IMG/VR virus record: IMGVR_UViG_2563366928_000007
Origin: a virus
Lineage: Duplodnaviria > Heunggongvirae > Uroviricota > Caudoviricetes
DNA: 12,483 nucleotides
Strand: one strand, 5' to 3'
A program made the position numbers and the translations under genes. The notes under the pieces were generated by a model, which was not told the DNA's origin, did no database searches, and was given only the letters and a program-made list of their open reading frames with translations. Shown piece after piece: positions 4,230 to 12,483 of the stretch. Every line of letters starts with the position of its first letter. Position 1 is the stretch's first letter.

Positions 4230-7200
4230 ATGGGTAAAGGCAGCAGTAAGGGGCATACCCCGCGCGAAGCGAAGGACAACCTGAAGTCCACGCAGCTGCT
4301 GAGTGTGATCGATGCCATCAGCGAAGGGCCGGTTGAAGGTCCGGTGGATGGATTAAAAAGCGTGCTGCTGAACAGTACGCCGGTGCTGGACAGTGAGGGG
4401 AATACCAATATATCCGGCGTCACGGTGGTGTTCCGGGCCGGTGAGCAGGAGCAGACACCGCCGGAGGGATTTGAATCCTCCGGCTCCGAGACGGTGCTGG
4501 GTACGGAAGTGAAGTACGACACGCCGATTACCCGGACCATCACGTCGGCAAACATCGACCGTCTGCGCTTTACCTTCGGTGTGCAGGCACTGGTGGAAAC
4601 CACCTCAAAGGGGGACCGGAATCCGTCGGAAGTCCGCCTGCTGGTTCAGATACAGCGTAATGGTGGCTGGGTGACGGAAAAAGACATCACCATTAAAGGC
4701 AAAACCACCTCACAGTATCTAGCATCGGTGGTGGTGGGTGACCTGCCGCCGCGCCCGTTCAATATCCGGATGCGCAGGATGACGCCGGACAGCACCACAG
4801 ACCAGCTGCAGAACAAAACGCTCTGGTCGTCATACACCGAAATCATCGATGTGAAACAGTGCTACCCGAACACGGCACTGGTCGGCGTACAGGTGGATTC
4901 GGAGCAGTTCGGCAGCCAGCAGGTGAGCCGTAATTATCATCTGCGCGGGCGTATTCTGCAGGTGCCGTCGAACTATAACCCGCAGACTCGGCAATACAGC
5001 GGTATCTGGGACGGAACGTTTAAGCCAGCATACAGCAATAACATGGCCTGGTGTCTGTGGGATATGCTGACCCATCCACGCTACGGCATGGGGAAACGTC
5101 TTGGTGCGGCGGATGTGGACAAATGGGCGCTGTATGTCATCGGCCAGTACTGCGACCAGTCAGTGCCGGACGGCTTTGGCGGCACGGAGCCGCGCATCAC
5201 CTGTAATGCGTACCTGACCACACAGCGCAAGGCGTGGGATGTGCTCAGTGATTTCTGCTCGGCGATGCGCTGTATGCCGGTATGGAACGGGCAGACGCTG
5301 ACGTTCGTGCAGGACCGACCGTCGGATAAGGTGTGGACCTATAACCGCAGTAATGTGGTGATGCCGGATGATGGCGCGCCGTTCCGCTACAGCTTCAGCG
5401 CCCTGAAGGACCGCCATAATGCCGTTGAGGTGAACTGGATTGACCCGGACAACGGCTGGGAGACGGCGACAGAGCTTGTTGAAGATACGCAGGCCATTGC
5501 CCGTTACGGTCGTAATGTCACGAAGATGGATGCCTTTGGCTGTACCAGCCGGGGGCAGGCACACCGCGCCGGGCTGTGGCTGATTAAAACGGAACTGCTG
5601 GAGACGCAGACCGTGGATTTCAGCGTGGGTGCTGAAGGGCTTCGCCATGTACCGGGCGATGTCATTGAAATCTGCGATGATGACTATGCCGGTATCAGCA
5701 CCGGTGGTCGCGTGCTGGCGGTGAACAGCCAGACCCGGACGCTGACGCTCGACCGTGAAATCACGCTGCCATCCTCCGGTACCACGCTGATAAGCCTGGT
5801 TGACGGAAGTGGTAATCCGGTCAGCGTGGAGGTTCAGTCCGTCACCGACGGACTTAAGGTGAAAGTGAACCGGGTTCCTGACGGCGTTGCAGAATACAGT
5901 GTGTGGGGGCTGAAGCTGCCGACGCTGCGCCAGCGCCTGTTCCGCTGTGTGAGTATCCGTGAGAACGATGACGGCACGTATGCCATCACTGCCGTGCAGC
6001 ATGTACCGGAAAAAGAAGCCATCGTGGATAACGGGGCGCACTTTGACGGCGACCAGAGCGGCACGGTGAATGGTGTCACGCCGCCAGCGGTGCAGCACCT
6101 GACCGCCGAAGTCACCGCAGACAGCGGGGAATATCAGGTGCTGGCGCGCTGGGACACGCCGAAGGTGGTGAAGGGCGTGAGCTTCCTGCTTCGCCTGACC
6201 GTGGCAGCGGATGACGGCAGTGAGCGGCTGGTCAGCACGGCCCGGACGACGGAAACCACATACCGCTTCACGCAACTGGCGCTGGGGCGGTACACGCTGA
6301 CAGTCCGGGCGGTAAATGCGTGGGGACAGCAGGGCGATCCGGCGTCGGTATCGTTCCGGATTGCCGCACCGGTAGCACCGTCGCGGATTGAGCTGACGCC
6401 GGGGTATTTTCAGATAACCGCCACGCCGCATCTTGCCGTTTATGACCCGACGGTACAGTTTGAGTTCTGGTTCTCGGAAAAGCGGATTACCGATATCAGG
6501 CAGGTTGAAACCACAGCGCGCTACCTTGGCACGGGGCTGTACTGGATAGCCGCCAGTATCAATATCAAACCGGGCCATGATTATTATTTTTACGTTCGCA
6601 GTGTGAACACCGTTGGCAAATCGGCATTCGTGGAGGCTGTTGGTCAGCCGAGTGATGATGCATCCGGCTATCTGGATTTTTTCAAAGGCGAGATAGGGAA
6701 AACCCATCTGGCTCAGGAGCTGTGGACGCAGATTGATAACGGTCAGCTTGCGCCTGACCTGGCTGAAATCAGGACGTCCATTACGGATGTCAGCAATGAA
6801 ATCACGCAGACCGTCAATAAGAAACTGGAAGACCAGAGTGCAGCGATCCAGCAGATACAGAAGGTTCAGGTTGATACAAATAATAACCTGAACAGCATGT
6901 GGGCAGTGAAGCTGCAGCAGATGCAGGACGGACGCCTTTATATTGCGGGTATCGGTGCCGGTATTGAGAACACCCCCGACGGCATGCAGAGTCAGGTGCT
7001 GCTGGCGGCAGACAGGATTGCGATGATTAATCCTGCGAATGGCAACACAAAGCCGATGTTTGTTGGTCAGGGCGATCAGATATTCATGAATGAAGTGTTC
7101 CTGAAATATCTGACGGCTCCCACCATTACCAGCGGCGGTAATCCTCCGGCATTTTCCCTGACACCGGACGGGCGACTGACGGCGAAAAATGCCGATATCA

Positions 7201-7709
7201 GCGGTAGCGTGAATGCGAACTCCGGGACGCTCAACAACGTCACGATTAACGAGAACTGTCGGGTTCTGGGAAAACTGTCCGCGAACCAGATTGAAGGCGA
7301 TCTCGTTAAAACAGTGGGCAAAGCTTTCCCCCGGGACTCCCGTGCACCGGAGCGGTGGCCATCAGGGACCATTACCGTCAGGGTTTATGACGATCAGCCG
7401 TTTGACCGGCAAATTGTTATTCCAGCGGTGGCTTTCAGCGGTGCCAGACATGAACGGGAGAATAGCGATACTTATTCGTCATGCCGCCTGATAGTGAAGA
7501 AAAACGGGGCTGAAATTTATAACCGAACGGCTCTGGATAATACTCTGATTTACACGGGTGTTATTGATATGCCTGCAGGCAGTGGCGTAATGACACTGGA
7601 GTTTTCTGTATCAGCATGGTGGGTAAATGGCTGGTATCCCACAGCAAGTATCAGCGATTTGCTGGTTGTTGTGATGAAGAAAGCCACTGCAGGCATCACG
7701 ATTAGCTGA
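4230..7709 (+). CDS. J: Central tail fibre / host specificity protein J (tip attachment protein)
   Basis: 1159-aa ORF with GGAG Shine-Dalgarno 8 nt upstream. The N-terminus [34 protein letters not shown]… and most of the first ~1000 aa match lambda gpJ from memory. The C-terminal ~150-200 aa diverge from lambda in sequence but retain the …[23 protein letters not shown] ending. Confidence 0.95.
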
Positions 7710-7776: not shown

Positions 7777-8376
7777 ATGCGTAAATTATGTGCTGTTATT
7801 CTGTCCACAGTAGTCTGGCTGGTCGCCGCTGGTACGCCAGCGAGCGCAGCAGAGCATCAGTCCACACTAAGCGCCGGGTATCTTCAGACCCATACTGATA
7901 TGCCCGGCAACGATGACCTGAAGGGCATTAACGTGAAATACCGTTATGAATTTACGGACACGCTGGGGCTGGTGACGTCATTCAGTTATGCCAATGCCAA
8001 AGATGAGCAAAAAACGCATTACAGCGATACCCGCTGGCATGAAGATTCAGTGCGTAACCGCTGGTTCAGCATGATGGCGGGGCCGTCTGTACGCGTGAAT
8101 GAATGGTTCAGTGCTTATGCGATGGCAGGTGTGGCTTACAGCCGTGTTTCAACTTTTTCCGGGGATTATCTCCGCGTAACTGACAGCAAGGGGAAAACGC
8201 ACGATGTGCTGACTGGAAGTGATGACGGTCGCCACAGCAACACGTCTCTGGCGTGGGGGGCTGGCGTGCAGTTTAACCCGACCGAATCCGTGGCCATTGA
8301 TATTGCTTATGAAGGCTCCGGCAGTGGTGACTGGCGCACTGACGGTTTCATCGTGGGTGTCGGTTATAAATTCTGA
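7777..8376 (+). CDS. lom: Outer membrane beta-barrel protein Lom (Ail/Lom/PagC/OmpX family)
   Basis: 199-aa ORF with GAGAGG Shine-Dalgarno. N-terminal signal peptide (MRKLCAVILSTVVWLVAAGTPASAAE), alternating amphipathic beta-strand pattern, and C-terminal …GVGYKF ending in Phe as in outer-membrane barrels. Position between J and stf is as in lambda. Confidence 0.9.
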   Translation: MRKLCAVILSTVVWLVAAGTPASAAEHQSTLSAGYLQTHTDMPGNDDLKGINVKYRYEFTDTLGLVTSFSYANAKDEQKTHYSDTRWHEDSVRNRWFSMMAGPSVRVNEWFSAYAMAGVAYSRVSTFSGDYLRVTDSKGKTHDVLTGSDDGRHSNTSLAWGAGVQFNPTESVAIDIAYEGSGSGDWRTDGFIVGVGYKF

Positions 8377-8430: not shown

Positions 8431-8440
8431 TGGAGTGGAT

Positions 8441-10816
8441 ATGGCAGCAGTAAAAATCTCAGGTGTGCTGAAAGATTGTGCGGGAAAACCAATACAGAAC
8501 TGCACTATTCAACTGAAGGCAAAGCGTAACAGCACCACGGTACTGGTGAACACGGTGGCCTCTGAAAATCCGGATGAAGCCGGGCGTTACAGCATGGATG
8601 TTGAGCATGGCCAGTACAGCGTCATCCTGCTGGTTGAAGGTTTTCCGCCTTCACATGCCGGGACCATTACCGTCTATGAAGGCTCCAGACCAGGTACGCT
8701 GAATGATTTTCTCGGTGCCATGACGGAAGATGATGTCATGCCGGAGGCATTGCGTCGTTTTGAGGCAATGGTGGAAGAAGTGGCACGCAACGCCGAAGCC
8801 GCCTCTCAGAGCGCAGCGGCGGCAAAGAAATCCGAAACTGCAGCGGCATCATCGAAGAACGCGGCGAAAACCTCAGAAACGAATGCAGCTAATAGTGCAC
8901 AGGCGGCAGCGACCTCAAAGACTGCATCGGCAAACTCCGCGACAGCAGCCAAAAAATCAGAAACCAACGCGAAAAACAGTGAGACAGCCGCAAAGACGAG
9001 CGAAACCAACGCAAAGTCCAGCCAGACGGCAGCGAAAACCAGCGAAACGAATGCTAAAGCCAGTGAAACTGCAGCAAAAAACAGCCAGGCTTCAGCAGCC
9101 GAAAGCGAGAGCGCGGCAGCCGGTTCTGCGACTTCAGCAGCTGGATCAGCAACTGCTGCGGCTAACAGCCAGAAAGCTGCGAAGACGAGTGAAACTAACG
9201 CAAAGTCCAGCCAGACGGCAGCGAAGACCAGCGAAACGAATGCCAAAGCCAGTGAAACTGCGGCGAAAAGCAGTCAGGATGCAGCGGCCCAAAGCGAGAG
9301 TGCCGCAGCCAGTTCTGCAAGCGCGGCGGCTGCTTCTGCCACTGCATCAGCTAACAGTCAAAAAGCAGCAAAAACCAGTGAAACCAACGCAAAGGTGAGC
9401 GAAACAGCGGCTGCGAACTCAGCGAAAGCATCGGCAGCAAGCCAGACGGCAGCTAAAGCAAGCGAAGATGCAGCCAGAGAGTACGCAAGCCAGGCTGCGG
9501 AGCCGTATAAATATGTCTTACAGCCGCTGCCTGATGTGTGGATACCATTTAACGATTCGCTGGATATGATTACGGGCTTTTCGCCATCATATAAAAAAAT
9601 TGTTATTGGTGACGATGAAATAACGATGCCTGGCGACAAGATTGTTAAGTTTAAACGTGCATCGAAAGCAACCTATATTAACAAATCTGGTGTGCTGACA
9701 GAGGCTGCCATTGACGAGCCACGATTTGAACGTGATGGCCTGCTTATTGAGGGGCAAAGAACAAACTACATGCTCAATTCGGAAAGCCCTGCCAGTTGGG
9801 GGCGATCGTCAAATATGGATGTGCCCGAAACAGGGACGGATAATTTTGGTTTTACCTATGGAAAGTTTGTCTGCAACGATTCTCTGATTGGGCAAACCTC
9901 AGCCATTAATATGGCATCAATTGCTGCAACAAAGTCAGTTGATGTCTCAGGCGATAATAAACACGTGACAACCTCATGTCGTTTTAAAACAGAACTGCAG
10001 GTAAGGTTGCGTATCCGGTTTGATAAATATGACGGTAGCGCAACAACTTTTCTTGGTGATGCGTATATTGATACACAAACGCTTGAAATTAATATGACAG
10101 GCGGTGCTGCCTCAAGGATTACAGCGAGAGTCAGAAAGGACGAAGCTACCGGATGGATTTTTGCAGAGGCAACAATTCAGGCAATTGATGGGGAGTTAAA
10201 AATAGGCTCTCAGATACAGTATTCTCCTAAGCAGAGCGGGGCAACCGTATCTGGTGACTATATTTATCTGGCCACCCCACAAGTAGAAGATGGGCCTTGT
10301 GTATCATCTTTTATTATATCAGGAGCGACGGCGGCGACCCGCGCAAGCGATATAGTTACAGTTCCAATTAAGAATAATCTTTATAATCTTCCTTTTACGG
10401 TTCTTTGTGAGGTACATAAGAACTGGTATAAAACGCCAAATGCAGCGCCACGTGTTTTTGATACCGGCGGTCATCAAACCGGAGCGGCTATTATTCTTGG
10501 CTTCGGTCGTTCAACAGATTACGACGGATTTCCTTATTGCGATATTGGAGGAGCTAACAGACGGGTAAACGAAAACGCATCGCTTGAAAAAATGGTTATG
10601 GGGATGCGTGTAAAGTCAGAGCAGTCTACGTGCTCAGTAAGTAACGGGCATATATCCAGCGAAACAAAAACCACATGGTCCTGTATTCAGAACACCGCAA
10701 TTATCCGTATTGGAGGCCAGACTACAGCCGGGTTACGTCATTTATTTGGTCATGTCAGGAATTTCAGAATATGGCACAAGGCATTGACTGATGCTCAGGT
10801 GGGGGAGTCAATCTAA
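8441..10816 (+). CDS. stf: Side tail fibre protein Stf, mosaic: lambda-like N-terminal domain, repeat shaft, divergent C-terminal receptor-binding region with LamG-like terminal motif
   Basis: Long ORF (track start GTG 8435; ATG 8441 is preferred, with GGAG 5 nt upstream, giving MAAVKISGVLKD… like lambda Stf MAVKISGVLKDGTGKPVQNCTIQLKA…). An S/A/T/K/E/N-rich repeat region follows. The C-terminal ~430 aa are unrelated to lambda Stf and end …GLRHLFGHVRNFRIWHKALTDAQVGESI. Confidence 0.9.
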   Translation: MAAVKISGVLKDCAGKPIQNCTIQLKAKRNSTTVLVNTVASENPDEAGRYSMDVEHGQYSVILLVEGFPPSHAGTITVYEGSRPGTLNDFLGAMTEDDVMPEALRRFEAMVEEVARNAEAASQSAAAAKKSETAAASSKNAAKTSETNAANSAQAAATSKTASANSATAAKKSETNAKNSETAAKTSETNAKSSQTAAKTSETNAKASETAAKNSQASAAESESAAAGSATSAAGSATAAANSQKAAKTSETNAKSSQTAAKTSETNAKASETAAKSSQDAAAQSESAAASSASAAAASATASANSQKAAKTSETNAKVSETAAANSAKASAASQTAAKASEDAAREYASQAAEPYKYVLQPLPDVWIPFNDSLDMITGFSPSYKKIVIGDDEITMPGDKIVKFKRASKATYINKSGVLTEAAIDEPRFERDGLLIEGQRTNYMLNSESPASWGRSSNMDVPETGTDNFGFTYGKFVCNDSLIGQTSAINMASIAATKSVDVSGDNKHVTTSCRFKTELQVRLRIRFDKYDGSATTFLGDAYIDTQTLEINMTGGAASRITARVRKDEATGWIFAEATIQAIDGELKIGSQIQYSPKQSGATVSGDYIYLATPQVEDGPCVSSFIISGATAATRASDIVTVPIKNNLYNLPFTVLCEVHKNWYKTPNAAPRVFDTGGHQTGAAIILGFGRSTDYDGFPYCDIGGANRRVNENASLEKMVMGMRVKSEQSTCSVSNGHISSETKTTWSCIQNTAIIRIGGQTTAGLRHLFGHVRNFRIWHKALTDAQVGESI
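8815..9480 (+). repeat. Low-complexity coding repeat region inside stf, including a ~189-bp (63-aa) tandem direct duplication (copies starting near 9011 and 9200, third partial copy after ~9389)
   Basis: The motif gcaaagtccagccagacggcagcgaa… occurs at ~9011 and again at ~9200, with collinear similarity over ~190 bp. The protein shows reiterated AAKTSETNAK(S/A)S(Q/E)TAAK units. Confidence 0.8.
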
Positions 10817-11097
10817 TGAAAGATTTAACACTCAAATTTGCCGACAGGGCCGACTTTTCGGCCTTTATGGAGAGTATTGGCTATTATGATGACGAGTCGA
10901 TGCAGGATGATATTCTTATTGACGTGATAGGTAACGTGTACAAAGAAACCGGAGAACTGACTGAAGATGGCGAACCGGTATGTGTTAAGGAAGACGGATA
11001 TTTTGTAAACGTGCGCATCATTAATGATTCGCAAATATCGTCATTATTCGATGAATACGTGGTTGCTGTTGAGCATCAACTTCGTGGCTGGATGTGA
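10816..11097 (+). CDS. Hypothetical small acidic protein (93 aa), translationally coupled to stf
   Basis: ATG overlaps the stf stop (TAATG). Codon usage is coherent with neighbouring genes. Strongly acidic (many D/E). No family recognised by eye. Confidence 0.6.
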   Translation: MKDLTLKFADRADFSAFMESIGYYDDESMQDDILIDVIGNVYKETGELTEDGEPVCVKEDGYFVNVRIINDSQISSLFDEYVVAVEHQLRGWM

Positions 11098-11106
11098 GGA
11101 AGAAAA

Positions 11107-12147
11107 ATGGCTACATCGACAGTAATTCCTGATGACATCAAAACGCTAAAATCCGACGTTAGCAAATTAAAAAACGATCAAGGAAGCTACGCAACAAAAT
11201 TATATGTAGACAGCAAAGATGAAATCGTTGGTGACTGGTCTGCTTCATGGTATCAGCAGGTATTGCCAACTAGCGGAGCTATATTTGGGAGAAAACTCCG
11301 CTCAACTCACAGGACGGCAGGTGTTGAGGATGCGTATTGCGAACTATACCTCAAAAAATGGATAGACAGTCCAGGTAACGCAATGGCGCGCCTTAACCTG
11401 AACGATAACGGGACAAACATTTGCTGGGACTTTACCAACCTTTATGGCGGTACGATGATTTTTCCCGGTGACAGCGGATACCTCAAAATGGGTAACTGCC
11501 TTATGTCATACAGCAAGCGTGGAAGTAACGCGCTTATTAAATTTGATTACACCGACACATTACAGATCAAATATGCCAATCATGGGTCAACCATGACATT
11601 AAACACACAGGGAACCGCTTATGCTGGTGTTACTGCTCAATTGTGGGGCAACTCCAGCCGTCCTGTTGTTTATGAAGTCGGTGTTGATGGTGGCGCTTAT
11701 ATGTTCTATGCGCAGAAAAATACCGATAACACCTATATGTTAAGCGTTAATGGTGCATGTCATGCCACCGCATTTAACCAGCATTCCGACCGGGATCTGA
11801 AAGACAACATTCAGGTGATCGATAATGCAACCGACCGCATCCGTAAAATGAACGGCTATACATACACGCTTAAAGAAAACGGTATGCCCTATGCTGGTGT
11901 CATTGCACAGGAAGCTCTGGAAGCAATCCCAGAAGCTGTAGGTTCCGCAATGAAATATCAGGACGGTGCAAGCGGATCGGAAGGTGAAGAAGGTGAACGT
12001 TATTACACAGTAGATTATTCTGGTGTTACTGGCTTGCTTGTTCAGGTAGCCAGAGAGTCAGACGACAGAATAACAGCACTGGAAGAAGAAAATGCAGAAT
12101 TAAAACAAAGATTATCTGCAATTGAGGCGACGCTTGCGTCTAAATAA
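11107..12147 (+). CDS. Tail fibre/spike-like protein with C-terminal intramolecular chaperone autocleavage domain (peptidase S74 / endosialidase-chaperone type)
   Basis: 346-aa ORF with strong GAGGAAG Shine-Dalgarno. The C-terminal ~120 aa carry the S74-type signature: HSDRDLKDNIQ (Ser-x4-Lys autocleavage motif), …YAGVIAQEALEAIPEAVG…, …YYTVDYSGVTGLLVQVARE…, and a terminal coiled coil ITALEEENAELKQRLSAIEATL. The N-terminal ~225 aa are beta-rich and fibre-like. Confidence 0.85.
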   Translation: MATSTVIPDDIKTLKSDVSKLKNDQGSYATKLYVDSKDEIVGDWSASWYQQVLPTSGAIFGRKLRSTHRTAGVEDAYCELYLKKWIDSPGNAMARLNLNDNGTNICWDFTNLYGGTMIFPGDSGYLKMGNCLMSYSKRGSNALIKFDYTDTLQIKYANHGSTMTLNTQGTAYAGVTAQLWGNSSRPVVYEVGVDGGAYMFYAQKNTDNTYMLSVNGACHATAFNQHSDRDLKDNIQVIDNATDRIRKMNGYTYTLKENGMPYAGVIAQEALEAIPEAVGSAMKYQDGASGSEGEEGERYYTVDYSGVTGLLVQVARESDDRITALEEENAELKQRLSAIEATLASK

Positions 12148-12153
12148 TATTAA

Positions 12154-12176
12154 GGGGCCGAGCGCCCCGTTTTATT
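12154..12176 (+). terminator. Possible weak intrinsic terminator or hairpin after the S74 fibre gene
   Basis: GGGGC (12154-12158), loop CGAGC, GCCCC (12164-12168), followed by GTTTTATT. The stem is short and the U-tract imperfect. Confidence 0.35.
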
Positions 12177-12183
12177 GGGTAGG

Positions 12184-12483
12184 ATGAAAATGGATATAAC
12201 ACCTTTCCTTCATGCACTTTGTGCTGTGGCTGCGCAGGTACTGGTTGGTCTTTTTACCGGAAACTGGGCTTACGGGGCGATAGCCGGTTGTACGTTCTTC
12301 ATTGCTCGTGAACATACCCAGGCAGAATATCGCTGGATTGAAATGTTCGGGCATGGCAAGCGTATGAATATGCCGTGGTGGGGTGGTTTTGATCCGCGAG
12401 TGTGGGATGTGGCAAGCCTGATGGATTTTTCTGTGCCGGTGGTGGCTTGTCTGCTGGTCTGGCTGTTGGTTAATCGTGGGTGA
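12184..12483 (+). CDS. Small predicted inner-membrane protein (~97-99 aa, two hydrophobic segments), function unknown; moron candidate
   Basis: ORF complete within the window (TGA 12481-12483). Track start is TTG 12175; more likely starts are ATG 12184 or ATG 12190 (AGGA 5 nt upstream of 12190). Hydrophobic stretches LHALCAVAAQVLVGLFTGNWAYGAIAGCTFFIA and VASLMDFSVPVVACLLVWLLV flank a charged loop. Confidence 0.6.
   Translation: MKMDITPFLHALCAVAAQVLVGLFTGNWAYGAIAGCTFFIAREHTQAEYRWIEMFGHGKRMNMPWWGGFDPRVWDVASLMDFSVPVVACLLVWLLVNRG

What the first reader, a model, noticed from the sequence alone, without database searches (positions are those of the whole stretch)
12184..12483. Small membrane-protein moron at the distal end of the tail fibre module
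Immediately downstream of the fibre genes, after a hairpin, lies a ~100-aa ORF with two predicted transmembrane segments and a charged, Trp-rich loop (…REHTQAEYRWIEMFGHGKRMNMPWWGGFDPRVWD…). The region downstream of tail fibre genes in lambdoid prophages is a classical site for lysogenic-conversion or superinfection-exclusion genes (for example cor and lom-type morons). A small inner-membrane protein here is a plausible exclusion, abortive-infection or envelope-modifying factor, but no family was recognised.
Basis: inference. Interest (0 to 1): 0.55.

Follow-up and report, generated by a model that had tools for sequence, protein, structure and literature searches.

The report
Conserved small membrane protein after tail fibres
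The ORF is a real, strongly conserved 97-residue inner-membrane protein of unknown function that sits just after the host-recognition (tail fibre or tailspike) genes of many unrelated phages and also occurs as an ordinary chromosomal gene in some bacteria; it is a widespread uncharacterised accessory gene, not a classical self-transcribed moron.

Summary
An intact ORF ends at the window's last base. Its conserved start is ATG 12190 (97 aa), not 12184. It follows a short GC hairpin with a T-run that lies after the last fibre gene. AlphaFold2 (pLDDT 91.8) gives three helices, not two, plus the quoted Trp-rich loop.

The protein belongs to phrog_1443 (unknown function). It is the same protein as phage 21 CPT_21_24 and E. 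coli B 'Ybl63'. It has no Pfam, NCBIfam or PADLOC match and no informative fold match. It occurs in 1912 of 5426 complete E. coli genomes, with pN/pS 0.12 and no disrupted copies among 81.

Phage-borne copies sit directly 3' of receptor-binding-protein genes in lambda-like, P22-like, epsilon15-like, P2-like, phage-plasmid and jumbo phages. They often overlap the upstream stop codon, and homology between contexts begins at the start codon. No promoter was found in the window. Late-operon expression is therefore the better inference than lysogenic expression.

Aeromonas and sphingomonads carry chromosomal copies among housekeeping genes, so phages probably captured a cellular family.

Function is untested. 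My best guess (about 0.3) is an envelope or inner-membrane effector that makes the infected cell refractory to further phage entry. Interest is moderate.

The parts
12190..12483 (+). ORF for a 97-aa three-helix inner-membrane protein (phrog_1443; identical family to phage 21 CPT_21_24 and E. coli B Ybl63). The stop codon is the last base of the window.
   Evidence: Translation. PHROG match E 7.7e-59 over the full length. AF2 pLDDT 91.8. Conserved ATGGAT start across three junction types. pN/pS 0.12.
12181..12184 (+). Weak Shine-Dalgarno-like AGGA, 5 nt before ATG 12190. Homology to the phage 21/Lambda_2E9-type context starts here.
   Evidence: Read from the sequence. The Lambda_2E9 match starts at query base 1382, which is window position 12181. 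Other junction types carry AAGGAGG instead.
12154..12176 (+). Terminator-like hairpin (5 G-C pairs, 5-nt loop) with a T-run, between the last fibre gene and the ORF.
   Evidence: Terminator scan. Fold of -10.8 kcal/mol, z -0.94. Conserved together with the S74-type fibre 3' end in about 21 of 80 related loci and in phage 611R6.
11107..12147 (+). 346-aa tail fibre protein with a C-terminal intramolecular chaperone (Peptidase_S74). It is the gene immediately upstream (context).
   Evidence: Pfam PF13884. phrog_4563, tail fibre.
10816..11097 (+). 93-aa ORF (phrog_1361, unknown function) whose start overlaps the stf stop. In phage 21-type prophages it lies directly before the membrane-protein gene, so it is a possible cassette partner.
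   Evidence: ORF list. PHROG match. stf, 92 aa, 97 aa order in phage 21, PhiR41_1, PhiR40_1 and E. coli B Rac. Weak similarity to the 95-aa ORF at the same position in Comamonas (E 0.035).
8435..10816 (+). 793-aa side tail fibre (Stf) with a lambda-type N-terminus. It is the start of the variable receptor-binding cassette whose 3' end is the membrane-protein gene.
   Evidence: Pfam phage_tail_N. phrog_1419 and phrog_5939. Its C-terminal domain is shared with the proteins upstream of the homologue in Comamonas and Chelativorans.

Best explanation
**Shown.** Window 12190-12483 encodes a 97-aa polytopic inner-membrane protein. It consists of a TM hairpin (residues 4-23 and 26-39), a juxtamembrane helix plus a Trp-rich loop (40-73), and a third TM helix (74-96). 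It belongs to a stand-alone family (phrog_1443, 'Ybl63') under strong purifying selection. In phages the gene is the constant 3' end of otherwise interchangeable receptor-binding-protein cassettes, and it is arranged as the last cistron of the tail-fibre (late) operon rather than as a self-contained transcription unit. The family also has chromosomal members among housekeeping genes in Aeromonas and Sphingomonadales.

**Inferred.** Phages captured a cellular membrane protein. Its nearly invariant polar cluster is H8, R40, E41, Q44, E46, R58, W72 and D79, together with P83. The positive-inside rule places this cluster at the cytoplasmic membrane interface. I infer that it binds a component of the inner membrane or envelope machinery that is conserved across Proteobacteria. 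When made late in infection (and from orphan copies in cryptic prophages and chromosomes), the protein would alter that component so that the cell becomes refractory to further phage genome entry or to loss of progeny. This would be functionally analogous to T4 Imm, P22 SieA or HK97 gp15, but the protein is unrelated to them in sequence.
For: - **Real, conserved gene.** 570 homologous clusters and 436 representative clusters at 50% identity, all about 70-146 aa and stand-alone. It occurs in 1912 of 5426 complete E. coli genomes. There are 36 alleles, none disrupted, with pN/pS 0.12.
- **Membrane fold.** Hydropathy and AF2 pLDDT 91.8 with three helices.
- **Conserved polar residues.** The block AREHTQAEYRWI...MPWWGGFD is invariant between Escherichia, Aeromonas and Comamonas. 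In an alignment down to about 30% identity, E41, W72 and P83 are invariant and H8, R40, Q44, A45 and E46 are at least 90% conserved.
- **Slower evolution than its neighbours.** The protein is 64% identical to the Comamonas copy. The adjacent fibre shows about 33% local identity and the small upstream ORF 25%. This fits a conserved host target.
- **Accessory, RBP-linked and operonic.** It lies directly after the Stf, tailspike or Tfa gene in Tritos, phage 21, Gally, PhiR41_1, phiHAP-1, Aeromonas 4_4512, ACP1, Carin-5, phiv142-3, EC.W1-9 and a Comamonas prophage.
- **Coupling to the upstream gene.** There are 4-nt start/stop overlaps in L012, L027, L028, L040 and phiHAP-1. Two of the three E. 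coli junction types have an AAGGAGG Shine-Dalgarno sequence 5-12 nt after the upstream stop. No promoter was found.
- **Autonomy from any one fibre.** Protein that is at least 93% identical follows unrelated RBPs.
- **Chromosomal copies without phage genes.** Aeromonas (between Pirin and RIO1 genes, syntenic in several species) and sphingomonads (neighbours include ligA, ftsZ, thiC and kpsF).
- **Retention in a cryptic prophage.** It is intact in E. coli B Rac.
- **Topology.** The loop carries 5.4 K+R on average, against 0 in the turn and 0.4-0.8 in the C-tail.
Against: - No functional data exist. Full-text searches for phrog_1443, the WP_000355360 accession and ybl63 found nothing relevant.
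- There is no similarity to any annotated PHROG, Pfam, NCBIfam or PADLOC family. Exclusion is therefore argued only from position and analogy.
- Known exclusion proteins usually diverge fast and are expressed from the prophage. This protein is unusually conserved and has no visible promoter in lambda-like contexts.
- Under the three-TM model the conserved loop is cytoplasmic, so it could not contact incoming phage parts in the periplasm directly.
- Housekeeping-context homologues in sphingomonads suggest a cellular role that need not concern phages.
- Topology is unresolved. The phage 21 record reports TMHMM with two TMDs, N-in and C-in, which would put the loop in the periplasm.
Confidence: 0.3

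Rival explanations
1. It is an envelope-glycan or lipid-carrier modifying (or regulating) factor. A very small membrane enzyme or inhibitor would act at the membrane interface on a lipid-linked intermediate or its synthase. This would change the surface receptor, in a way similar to serotype conversion. It would explain both the cellular homologues and the near-invariant H/E/E/D/R cluster.
For: - A His/Glu/Glu/Asp/Arg cluster conserved to about 30% identity lies at one membrane face.
- In a P22-like phage the gene sits beside an OafA-type O-acetylase gene, between the tail genes and int.
- In Gally it occupies the slot between the tailspike gene and int.
- In epsilon15-like phages it sits between the tailspike and lysis genes. 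From my own knowledge, that slot holds O-antigen conversion genes in P22 and epsilon15.
- Chromosomal copies occur near envelope or division genes in some sphingomonads (ftsZ, ligA, kpsF, polysaccharide export).
Against: - There is no match to any known transferase, phosphatase or flippase family and no fold match.
- At 97 aa it is at the lower limit for an enzyme.
- Chromosomal neighbours are heterogeneous and show no conserved operon.
- The same protein occurs in hosts with very different surface glycans.
Confidence: 0.2
2. It is a membrane-associated helper for maturation or assembly of the receptor-binding proteins encoded just upstream, occupying the genomic slot of the tail fibre assembly protein.
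For: - The gene is strictly adjacent to RBP or Tfa genes and often translationally coupled to them.
- At the Rac locus the 92-aa and 97-aa pair of E. coli B replaces tfaR of K-12 and leaves only a tfa 3' remnant.
- The trio of RBP, a roughly 93-aa ORF and the membrane protein recurs in E. coli and Comamonas, and the RBP-membrane protein pair recurs in Chelativorans.
Against: - Nearly identical protein follows unrelated RBPs. These include self-chaperoning S74 fibres and P22-type tailspikes, which need no helper.
- Aeromonas and sphingomonad copies have no phage genes nearby.
- It is kept intact in a cryptic prophage that lacks a full fibre gene.
- It has decayed to a 51-codon remnant in lytic HC6-like phages that keep the upstream 859-aa presumed fibre gene.
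- There is no Caudo_TAP or other chaperone signature.
Confidence: 0.1
3. It has a lysis-related function, as a class I-like holin, an antiholin or a lysis-timing modulator made late in infection.
For: - It has about 100 aa and three helices, and its arrangement implies late-operon expression.
- In epsilon15-like phages it lies two genes before the holin and endolysin genes.
- In a Comamonas prophage it is followed by three small overlapping ORFs.
Against: - There is no holin PHROG or Pfam match.
- The C-terminal tail is only 2-4 residues, not a charged cytoplasmic tail.
- From my own knowledge, lambda-like phages carry their S-R-Rz lysis cassette at the other end of the late operon.
- Intact copies persist in cryptic prophages and chromosomes under purifying selection.
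- The Comamonas downstream ORFs match no lysis family.
- Holins do not usually keep an invariant polar loop across classes of bacteria.
Confidence: 0.07
4. It has no function of its own in this phage. It would be a hitch-hiker kept because it provides the conserved right-hand homology arm for exchange of tail-fibre cassettes by recombination.
For: - Homology between contexts begins at the start codon (at window 12181, 9 nt upstream, for the Lambda_2E9 type), and the upstream fibres are swapped.
- HC6-like lytic phages carry a truncated remnant after an 859-aa presumed fibre gene, consistent with acquisition by recombination.
- Phage 611R6 carries the fibre 3' remnant, the hairpin and the ORF without an intact fibre gene.
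Against: - pN/pS is 0.12 and none of 81 copies is disrupted. The selection is therefore on the protein, not only on the DNA.
- Chromosomal orthologues are conserved across genera.
Confidence: 0.05

Closest known systems
Phage 21 CPT_21_24 'putative membrane protein' / E. coli B 'Ybl63' / PHROG phrog_1443
   Same: It is the same protein family, at about 95% identity. It has the same position after the side tail fibre genes and the same length.
   Different: Nothing of substance differs. In the window an extra S74-type fibre gene and a hairpin lie between the 93-aa ORF and this gene. None of these entries has an assigned function.
Inner-membrane superinfection-exclusion proteins (T4 Imm, P22 SieA, HK97 gp15)
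   Same: These are small phage-encoded inner-membrane proteins, accessory to the virion, that block genome entry (own knowledge; P22 SieA in PMC10883804, title and abstract only). This is the proposed way of working.
   Different: There is no detectable sequence similarity, since only phrog_1443 and phrog_34165 match. From my own knowledge, SieA and gp15 are prophage-expressed, whereas this gene shows no promoter and sits in the late operon. This family is also far more conserved and has cellular homologues.
Cor / Llp receptor-blocking lipoproteins of T1-, phi80-, N15- and T5-like phages
   Same: They are also encoded right next to the receptor-binding protein gene and are also accessory (own knowledge).
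   Different: From my own knowledge, those are secreted lipoproteins that plug a specific outer-membrane receptor and co-vary with the RBP. This protein is polytopic, does not co-vary with the RBP, and its lipobox-like IAGC(31-34) is not conserved in distant members.
P2 Z/fun locus and the P22 / epsilon15 conversion-gene slots
   Same: The genomic slot is the same. In phiHAP-1 the gene lies between the tail fibre assembly gene and the sheath gene. In P22-like phages it lies between the tailspike gene and int. In epsilon15-like phages it lies between the tailspike and lysis genes. From my own knowledge, those slots hold lysogenic-conversion or exclusion genes in the model phages.
   Different: The proteins are unrelated. 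Here the gene is usually co-oriented with the structural genes and coupled to them.
   Same: It is an accessory envelope protein in the same tail-fibre region. A true lom gene is present in this window at 7777-8376.
   Different: Lom is an outer-membrane beta-barrel, whereas this protein is an alpha-helical inner-membrane protein. They share no homology.

Membership tests
PHROG phrog_1443 (unknown function) | Full-length match to the family profile | tested here: met
   E 7.7e-59, residues 3-98 of the 99-aa form against profile positions 1-96 of 97.
Moron in the strict sense (own knowledge of the definition) | Own sigma-70 promoter directly upstream | tested here: not met
   There is no promoter-like site between 12000 and 12190 in the window and none in phage 21. 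By eye, only an 8-of-12 match (TTGAGG-17-TAATAT, 12122-12150) is present, below the scan threshold. Gally has one 9-of-12 site, but the count there is no higher than in shuffles.
Moron in the strict sense (own knowledge of the definition) | Own factor-independent terminator directly downstream | tested here: inconclusive
   The window ends at the stop codon. In the 98.8%-identical phage Tritos no + strand terminator-like site is found in the 300 nt after the gene.
Moron in the strict sense (own knowledge of the definition) | Inserted between genes that are adjacent in related phages, with deviating base composition | tested here: met
   K-12 Rac has stfR-tfaR-pinR, whereas E. coli B Rac has stf'-92aa-97aa-tfa remnant-pinR. 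GC is 0.517 against 0.43-0.46 in the fibre genes.
Cor/Llp-type exclusion lipoproteins | Cleavable lipoprotein signal peptide with a conserved lipobox cysteine | tested here: not met
   IAGC at 31-34 resembles a lipobox. However, the preceding segment holds invariant H8 and Q16 and has no basic n-region, and the Cys is lost in distant members. AF2 models residues 4-53 as a helical hairpin.
Ail/Lom outer-membrane proteins | Beta-barrel OMP domain (PF06316) | tested here: not met
   There is no Pfam hit and the model is all-helical.
Class I holins | Three TMDs with a charged cytoplasmic C-terminal tail, encoded in a lysis cassette | tested here: not met
   Three helices are present. However, the C-tail is 2-4 residues with 0.4-0.8 K+R, there is no holin PHROG or Pfam match, and the gene is not next to lysis genes in the lambda-like contexts.
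Tail fibre assembly proteins (Tfa, Caudo_TAP) | Soluble chaperone domain matching the family profile | tested here: not met
   There is no Pfam or PHROG match and the protein is membrane-embedded.
Known anti-phage defence systems (PADLOC-DB v2) | Match to any defence-protein profile | tested here: not met
   Zero families at E <= 1.
Inner-membrane superinfection-exclusion proteins (Imm, SieA, gp15) | Blocks genome entry of superinfecting phage when expressed alone | not testable with these tools
   This needs efficiency-of-plating and DNA-entry assays. At the sequence level no annotated PHROG matches.

The most novel reading that the evidence does not exclude
The family is a previously unrecognised, ancient cellular inner-membrane factor with a juxtamembrane His/Glu/Asp/Arg ligand- or metal-binding site. 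It would act on a process universal to proteobacterial envelopes. Phages of at least six architectures would have captured it repeatedly and fixed it as the last cistron of their receptor-binding cassettes. That would make it a new class of late-expressed auxiliary gene linking host recognition to manipulation of the host membrane, not one more Imm/Sie/Cor analogue.
Probability: 0.15. Interest if true: 0.7.

Novelty: new member of a known kind. Interest (0 to 1): 0.42.

Why it matters
About a third of complete E. coli genomes carry this gene, with a median of two copies in the genomes that have it. Classic phage 21 and the Rac prophage of the B/BL21 laboratory lineage carry it too, yet it has no name, no Pfam family and no literature.

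Three features make it a tractable candidate for a new phage-host membrane interaction:
- It is linked to receptor-binding genes across sipho-, podo-, myo- and jumbo phages.
- It is far more conserved than those genes.
- It has cellular homologues.

It also marks the constant right-hand edge of exchangeable tail-fibre cassettes. That is useful for annotating receptor-binding modules and prophage boundaries, and for engineering them. If it does nothing measurable, it is simply one more conserved hypothetical phage gene.

Tried and rejected
- **Family searches.** Pfam, NCBIfam and PADLOC scans of the protein gave nothing, apart from a sub-threshold hit to the PhoR N-terminal TM hairpin. Scanning 44 diverse members against Pfam gave only scattered weak hits (PhoR in 4 of 44, VirB3 in 3 of 44).
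- **Literature.** Searches for phrog_1443, WP_000355360 and ybl63 found nothing relevant. The phage 21 genome announcement mentions morons only in general terms. The NC-SV svsR sRNA paper concerns the cI region, not this locus.
- **Lipoprotein idea.** The IAGC motif was rejected on conservation grounds.
- **Invertible-segment idea.** A pinR-like gene lies downstream in Tritos and in E. coli B Rac. No convincing inverted crossover sites flank the cassette.
- **Domain fusions.** Searching for fusions that might hint at function found only variants with loop insertions and spurious N-terminal extensions.
- **Upstream neighbours.** An aggregated PHROG scan of upstream neighbours across 62 genomic loci was too heterogeneous to summarise. 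It was replaced by per-phage annotation and neighbour clustering.
- **Viral-contig scan.** A scan with the deep alignment failed for lack of a conserved stretch.

Full report
**1. What is in the sequence**

The last 300 bases of the window hold an open frame from 12175 to the TGA at 12481-12483, which is the final base of the window. Two in-frame ATGs exist, at 12184 and 12190.

The second ATG is the real start:
- In 80 closely related E. coli proviral loci the sequence upstream of the gene falls into three unrelated junction types, and all converge on ATGGAT.
- The PHROG profile aligns from that methionine.
- The GenBank records of phages Tritos and 21 annotate a 294-nt CDS.

The product is 97 aa. 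The preceding gene (11107-12147) is a 346-aa tail fibre with a Peptidase_S74 intramolecular chaperone. A hairpin of five G-C pairs plus a T-run follows it at 12154-12176. The fold is -10.8 kcal/mol with z = -0.94, so it is present but weak statistically.

The rest of the window is a lambda-type tail module:
- tape-measure C-terminus, then M, L, K, I
- J (4230-7709)
- lom (7777-8376)
- a 793-aa Stf (8435-10816)
- a 93-aa ORF (10816-11097)

**2. The protein**

Hydropathy shows a strongly hydrophobic stretch at 5-23, a moderately hydrophobic stretch at 26-39 and a strongly hydrophobic stretch at 77-95. AlphaFold2 with a 29-sequence alignment gives pLDDT 91.8 and three helices, at 4-23, 26-53 and 74-96. 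TMHMM, as quoted in the phage 21 record, merges the first two.

K+R counts across the family are 5.4 in the 40-74 loop, 0 in the hairpin turn and 0.4-0.8 in the C-tail. With three TMDs the positive-inside rule puts the N-terminus and the conserved loop in the cytoplasm. This is an inference and the topology is not settled.

Conservation is striking:
- Among sequences that are only about 58-64% identical overall (Escherichia, Aeromonas, Leclercia, Comamonas), the block AREHTQAEYRWI and the block MPWWGGFD are essentially invariant.
- Down to about 30% identity, E41, W72 and P83 stay invariant, and H8, R40, Q44, A45 and E46 stay at least 90% conserved.
- In the model's topology H8, R40/E41, E46 and D79 all lie at the same membrane face.

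**3. Family and known relatives**

A search of 1.84 billion representatives found 436 clusters, all about 70-146 aa and stand-alone. The longer ones have a loop insertion of about 45 residues or spurious extensions, not fused domains.

The exact family is annotated 'putative membrane protein' in phage 21 (CPT_21_24), 'Ybl63' in UniRef for the E. coli B copy, and 'hypothetical protein' everywhere else. Full-text searches found no paper about it.

**4. Distribution and selection**

The gene occurs in 1912 of 5426 complete E. coli genomes, with a median of two copies, and 57 places are on plasmids. Among 81 copies there are 36 DNA alleles. None is disrupted, and pN/pS is 0.12. The protein itself is therefore under selection.

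**5. Genomic context in phages**

In every annotated phage examined, the gene lies directly after a receptor-binding-protein gene or its chaperone:

| Phage type | Examples | Position of the gene |
|---|---|---|
| Lambda-like | Tritos, phage 21, PhiR40_1 | after Stf or fibre genes |
| SSU5-like phage-plasmid | PhiR41_1 | after Stf and the 92-aa ORF |
| P22-like | Gally | tailspike, gene, int |
| P22-like | 611R6 | O-acetylase, fibre remnant with hairpin, gene, int |
| Epsilon15-like | phiv142-3, EC.W1-9 | tailspike, gene, 134-aa membrane protein, holin, endolysin |
| P2-like | phiHAP-1 | overlaps the tfa stop, before the sheath gene |
| P22-like (Aeromonas) | 4_4512 | between a 698-aa protein and gp10 |
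| Jumbo Aeromonas phage | ACP1 | between a 1125-aa protein and a tail fibre gene |
| Cobetia phage | Carin-5 | between a tailspike gene and a fibre gene |
| Comamonas prophage | (L073) | after a 2520-aa J-like protein |

In many loci the start overlaps the upstream stop by 4 nt (L012, L027, L028, L040, phiHAP-1). Two of the three E. coli junction types have AAGGAGG 5-12 nt after the upstream stop.

Homology between contexts begins at the start codon or, for the Lambda_2E9 type, 9 nt upstream at window 12181. No promoter travels with the gene, and none is detected in the window or in phage 21. The arrangement is that of a last cistron of the late fibre operon. From established knowledge of lambdoid phages, Q-modified polymerase reads through terminators such as the hairpin at 12154.

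At the Rac locus, K-12 has stfR-tfaR-pinR. E. coli B has stf'-92aa-97aa-(tfa 3' remnant)-pinR. The same tfa remnant and pin-like gene follow the gene in Tritos. The gene is thus the constant right-hand end of an exchangeable fibre cassette.

Lytic HC6-like phages carry a truncated 51-codon remnant directly after an 859-aa hypothetical protein, presumably the tail fibre.

**6. Context outside phages**

- **Aeromonas.** Species carry the gene at a syntenic chromosomal site between Pirin and RIO1-kinase genes, with no phage genes nearby.
- **Sphingomonadales.** In 27 loci from Sphingomonadales and other Alphaproteobacteria the neighbours are housekeeping genes (ligA, ftsZ, thiC, kpsF-like, cox, methyltransferases), and no phage family appears among the recurrent hits. 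In three loci the gene follows ligA directly.
- **Leclercia.** Copies lie between prlC-like and metE-like/ABC-transporter genes.
- **Silvania.** The 'chromosomal' copies sit next to ompN and nifJ, which is the Rac attachment neighbourhood. They are therefore probably prophage relics.

The family is thus cellular as well as viral. The simplest reading is capture of a cellular gene by phages, but the direction is not proven.

**7. Interpretation**

*Shown:* this is a real, selected, helical membrane protein. It is accessory to the virion module, linked to receptor-binding genes of many architectures, not tied to any one of them, operonic with them, and has cellular homologues.

*Inferred:* the protein evolves much more slowly than the fibres next to it. 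It is 64% identical to the Comamonas copy, against about 33% local identity for the fibre and 25% for the small upstream ORF. Its conserved residues form a polar juxtamembrane cluster. I therefore infer that it binds something conserved in the proteobacterial inner membrane or envelope machinery.

Four facts bear on the most likely role:
- It appears to be made late.
- It sits where Cor, Llp, Z/fun and conversion genes sit in model phages (own knowledge).
- It is kept in cryptic prophages.
- It is dispensable in some lytic phages.

Taken together, I consider the most likely role to be making the infected or carrier cell refractory to further phage entry or to progeny loss. My confidence is about 0.3, because nothing functional was tested.

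The rivals are:
- an envelope-glycan or lipid-carrier modifying factor (0.2)
- a fibre-maturation helper (0.1)
- a lysis modulator (0.07)
- a functionless recombination arm (0.05), which the pN/pS value argues against

The remaining probability is 'something else'.

**8.

- 'Accessory membrane protein at the end of the fibre module' holds.
- 'Moron' in the strict, self-transcribed and lysogen-expressed sense is not supported.
- The family is recognisable but uncharacterised.

**9. Novelty**

The gene is already present in databases as a hypothetical protein. What this work adds is the cross-architecture linkage to receptor-binding genes, the operonic arrangement, the deep conservation pattern and the cellular homologues. 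It is best filed as a new, uncharacterised member of the known kind 'phage accessory envelope proteins encoded beside receptor-binding genes'. Interest is moderate.

Noticed in passing
window 10816-11097: A 93-aa ORF (phrog_1361, unknown function) has a start that overlaps the stf stop. In phage 21-type prophages it directly precedes the membrane-protein gene. A 95-aa ORF at the same position in Comamonas is weakly similar (25% identity, E 0.035). This suggests an old three-gene cassette of RBP, a roughly 93-aa ORF and the membrane protein.
   Followed up: partly
L001 7690-7815 (Tritos); L167 6314-6424 (E. coli B Rac): The 3' remnant of a tail fibre assembly gene lies just after the membrane-protein gene, followed by a pinR-like recombinase gene on the other strand. 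The fibre cassette seems to have replaced an stf-tfa pair up to the end of tfa. No convincing inversion crossover sites were found.
   Followed up: partly
L085-L164 (IMG/VR loci); window end 12483: Many IMG/VR proviral contigs end exactly at this gene's stop codon, as the window does. The gene is routinely called as the last gene of the predicted prophage, which looks like a boundary-calling artefact. In full genomes sitABCD, pinR or int follow it.
   Followed up: partly
L084 3965-4120 (phage HC6 and relatives): Lytic 47.7-kb coliphages carry an unannotated, truncated 51-codon remnant of the gene (it retains ...IPWWGGFDWRAWDLPSLLD). It lies right after an 859-aa hypothetical protein, presumably the tail fibre. 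This suggests the module was acquired from prophages and the membrane-protein gene then decayed.
   Followed up: partly
L002 and L080 (Lambda_2E9-type phages, phage 21): The complete sitABCD manganese/iron transporter operon lies immediately downstream of the gene on the opposite strand in phage 21-like phages.
   Followed up: no
window 7777-8376: A full-length lom (Ail/Lom outer-membrane protein) gene lies between J and stf. It is the classical lambda moron.
   Followed up: yes
proteins P0148, P0193, P0258: A subgroup of homologues carries a hydrophilic insertion of about 45 residues in the conserved loop, after FGKPF and before the MPWWGGF block.
   Followed up: no
window residues 31-34 of the protein (12280-12291): IAGC resembles a lipoprotein lipobox and is conserved among close relatives but not among distant ones. 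One UniRef entry names an Aeromonas member 'Prolipoprotein diacylglyceryl transferase', which is probably a misannotation.
   Followed up: partly
L005 (MAG labelled Collinsella); cluster member P0265 labelled Alistipes onderdonkii: Near-identical copies of this E. coli prophage gene appear in assemblies labelled as Gram-positive or Bacteroidetes taxa. This most likely reflects contamination or mis-binning.
   Followed up: no
L055, L065, L067 (sphingomonad and alphaproteobacterial MAG loci): The chromosomal homologue lies directly downstream of ligA. In two of these loci ftsZ lies further upstream, so the gene may sit at the end of the division and cell-wall cluster.
   Followed up: no
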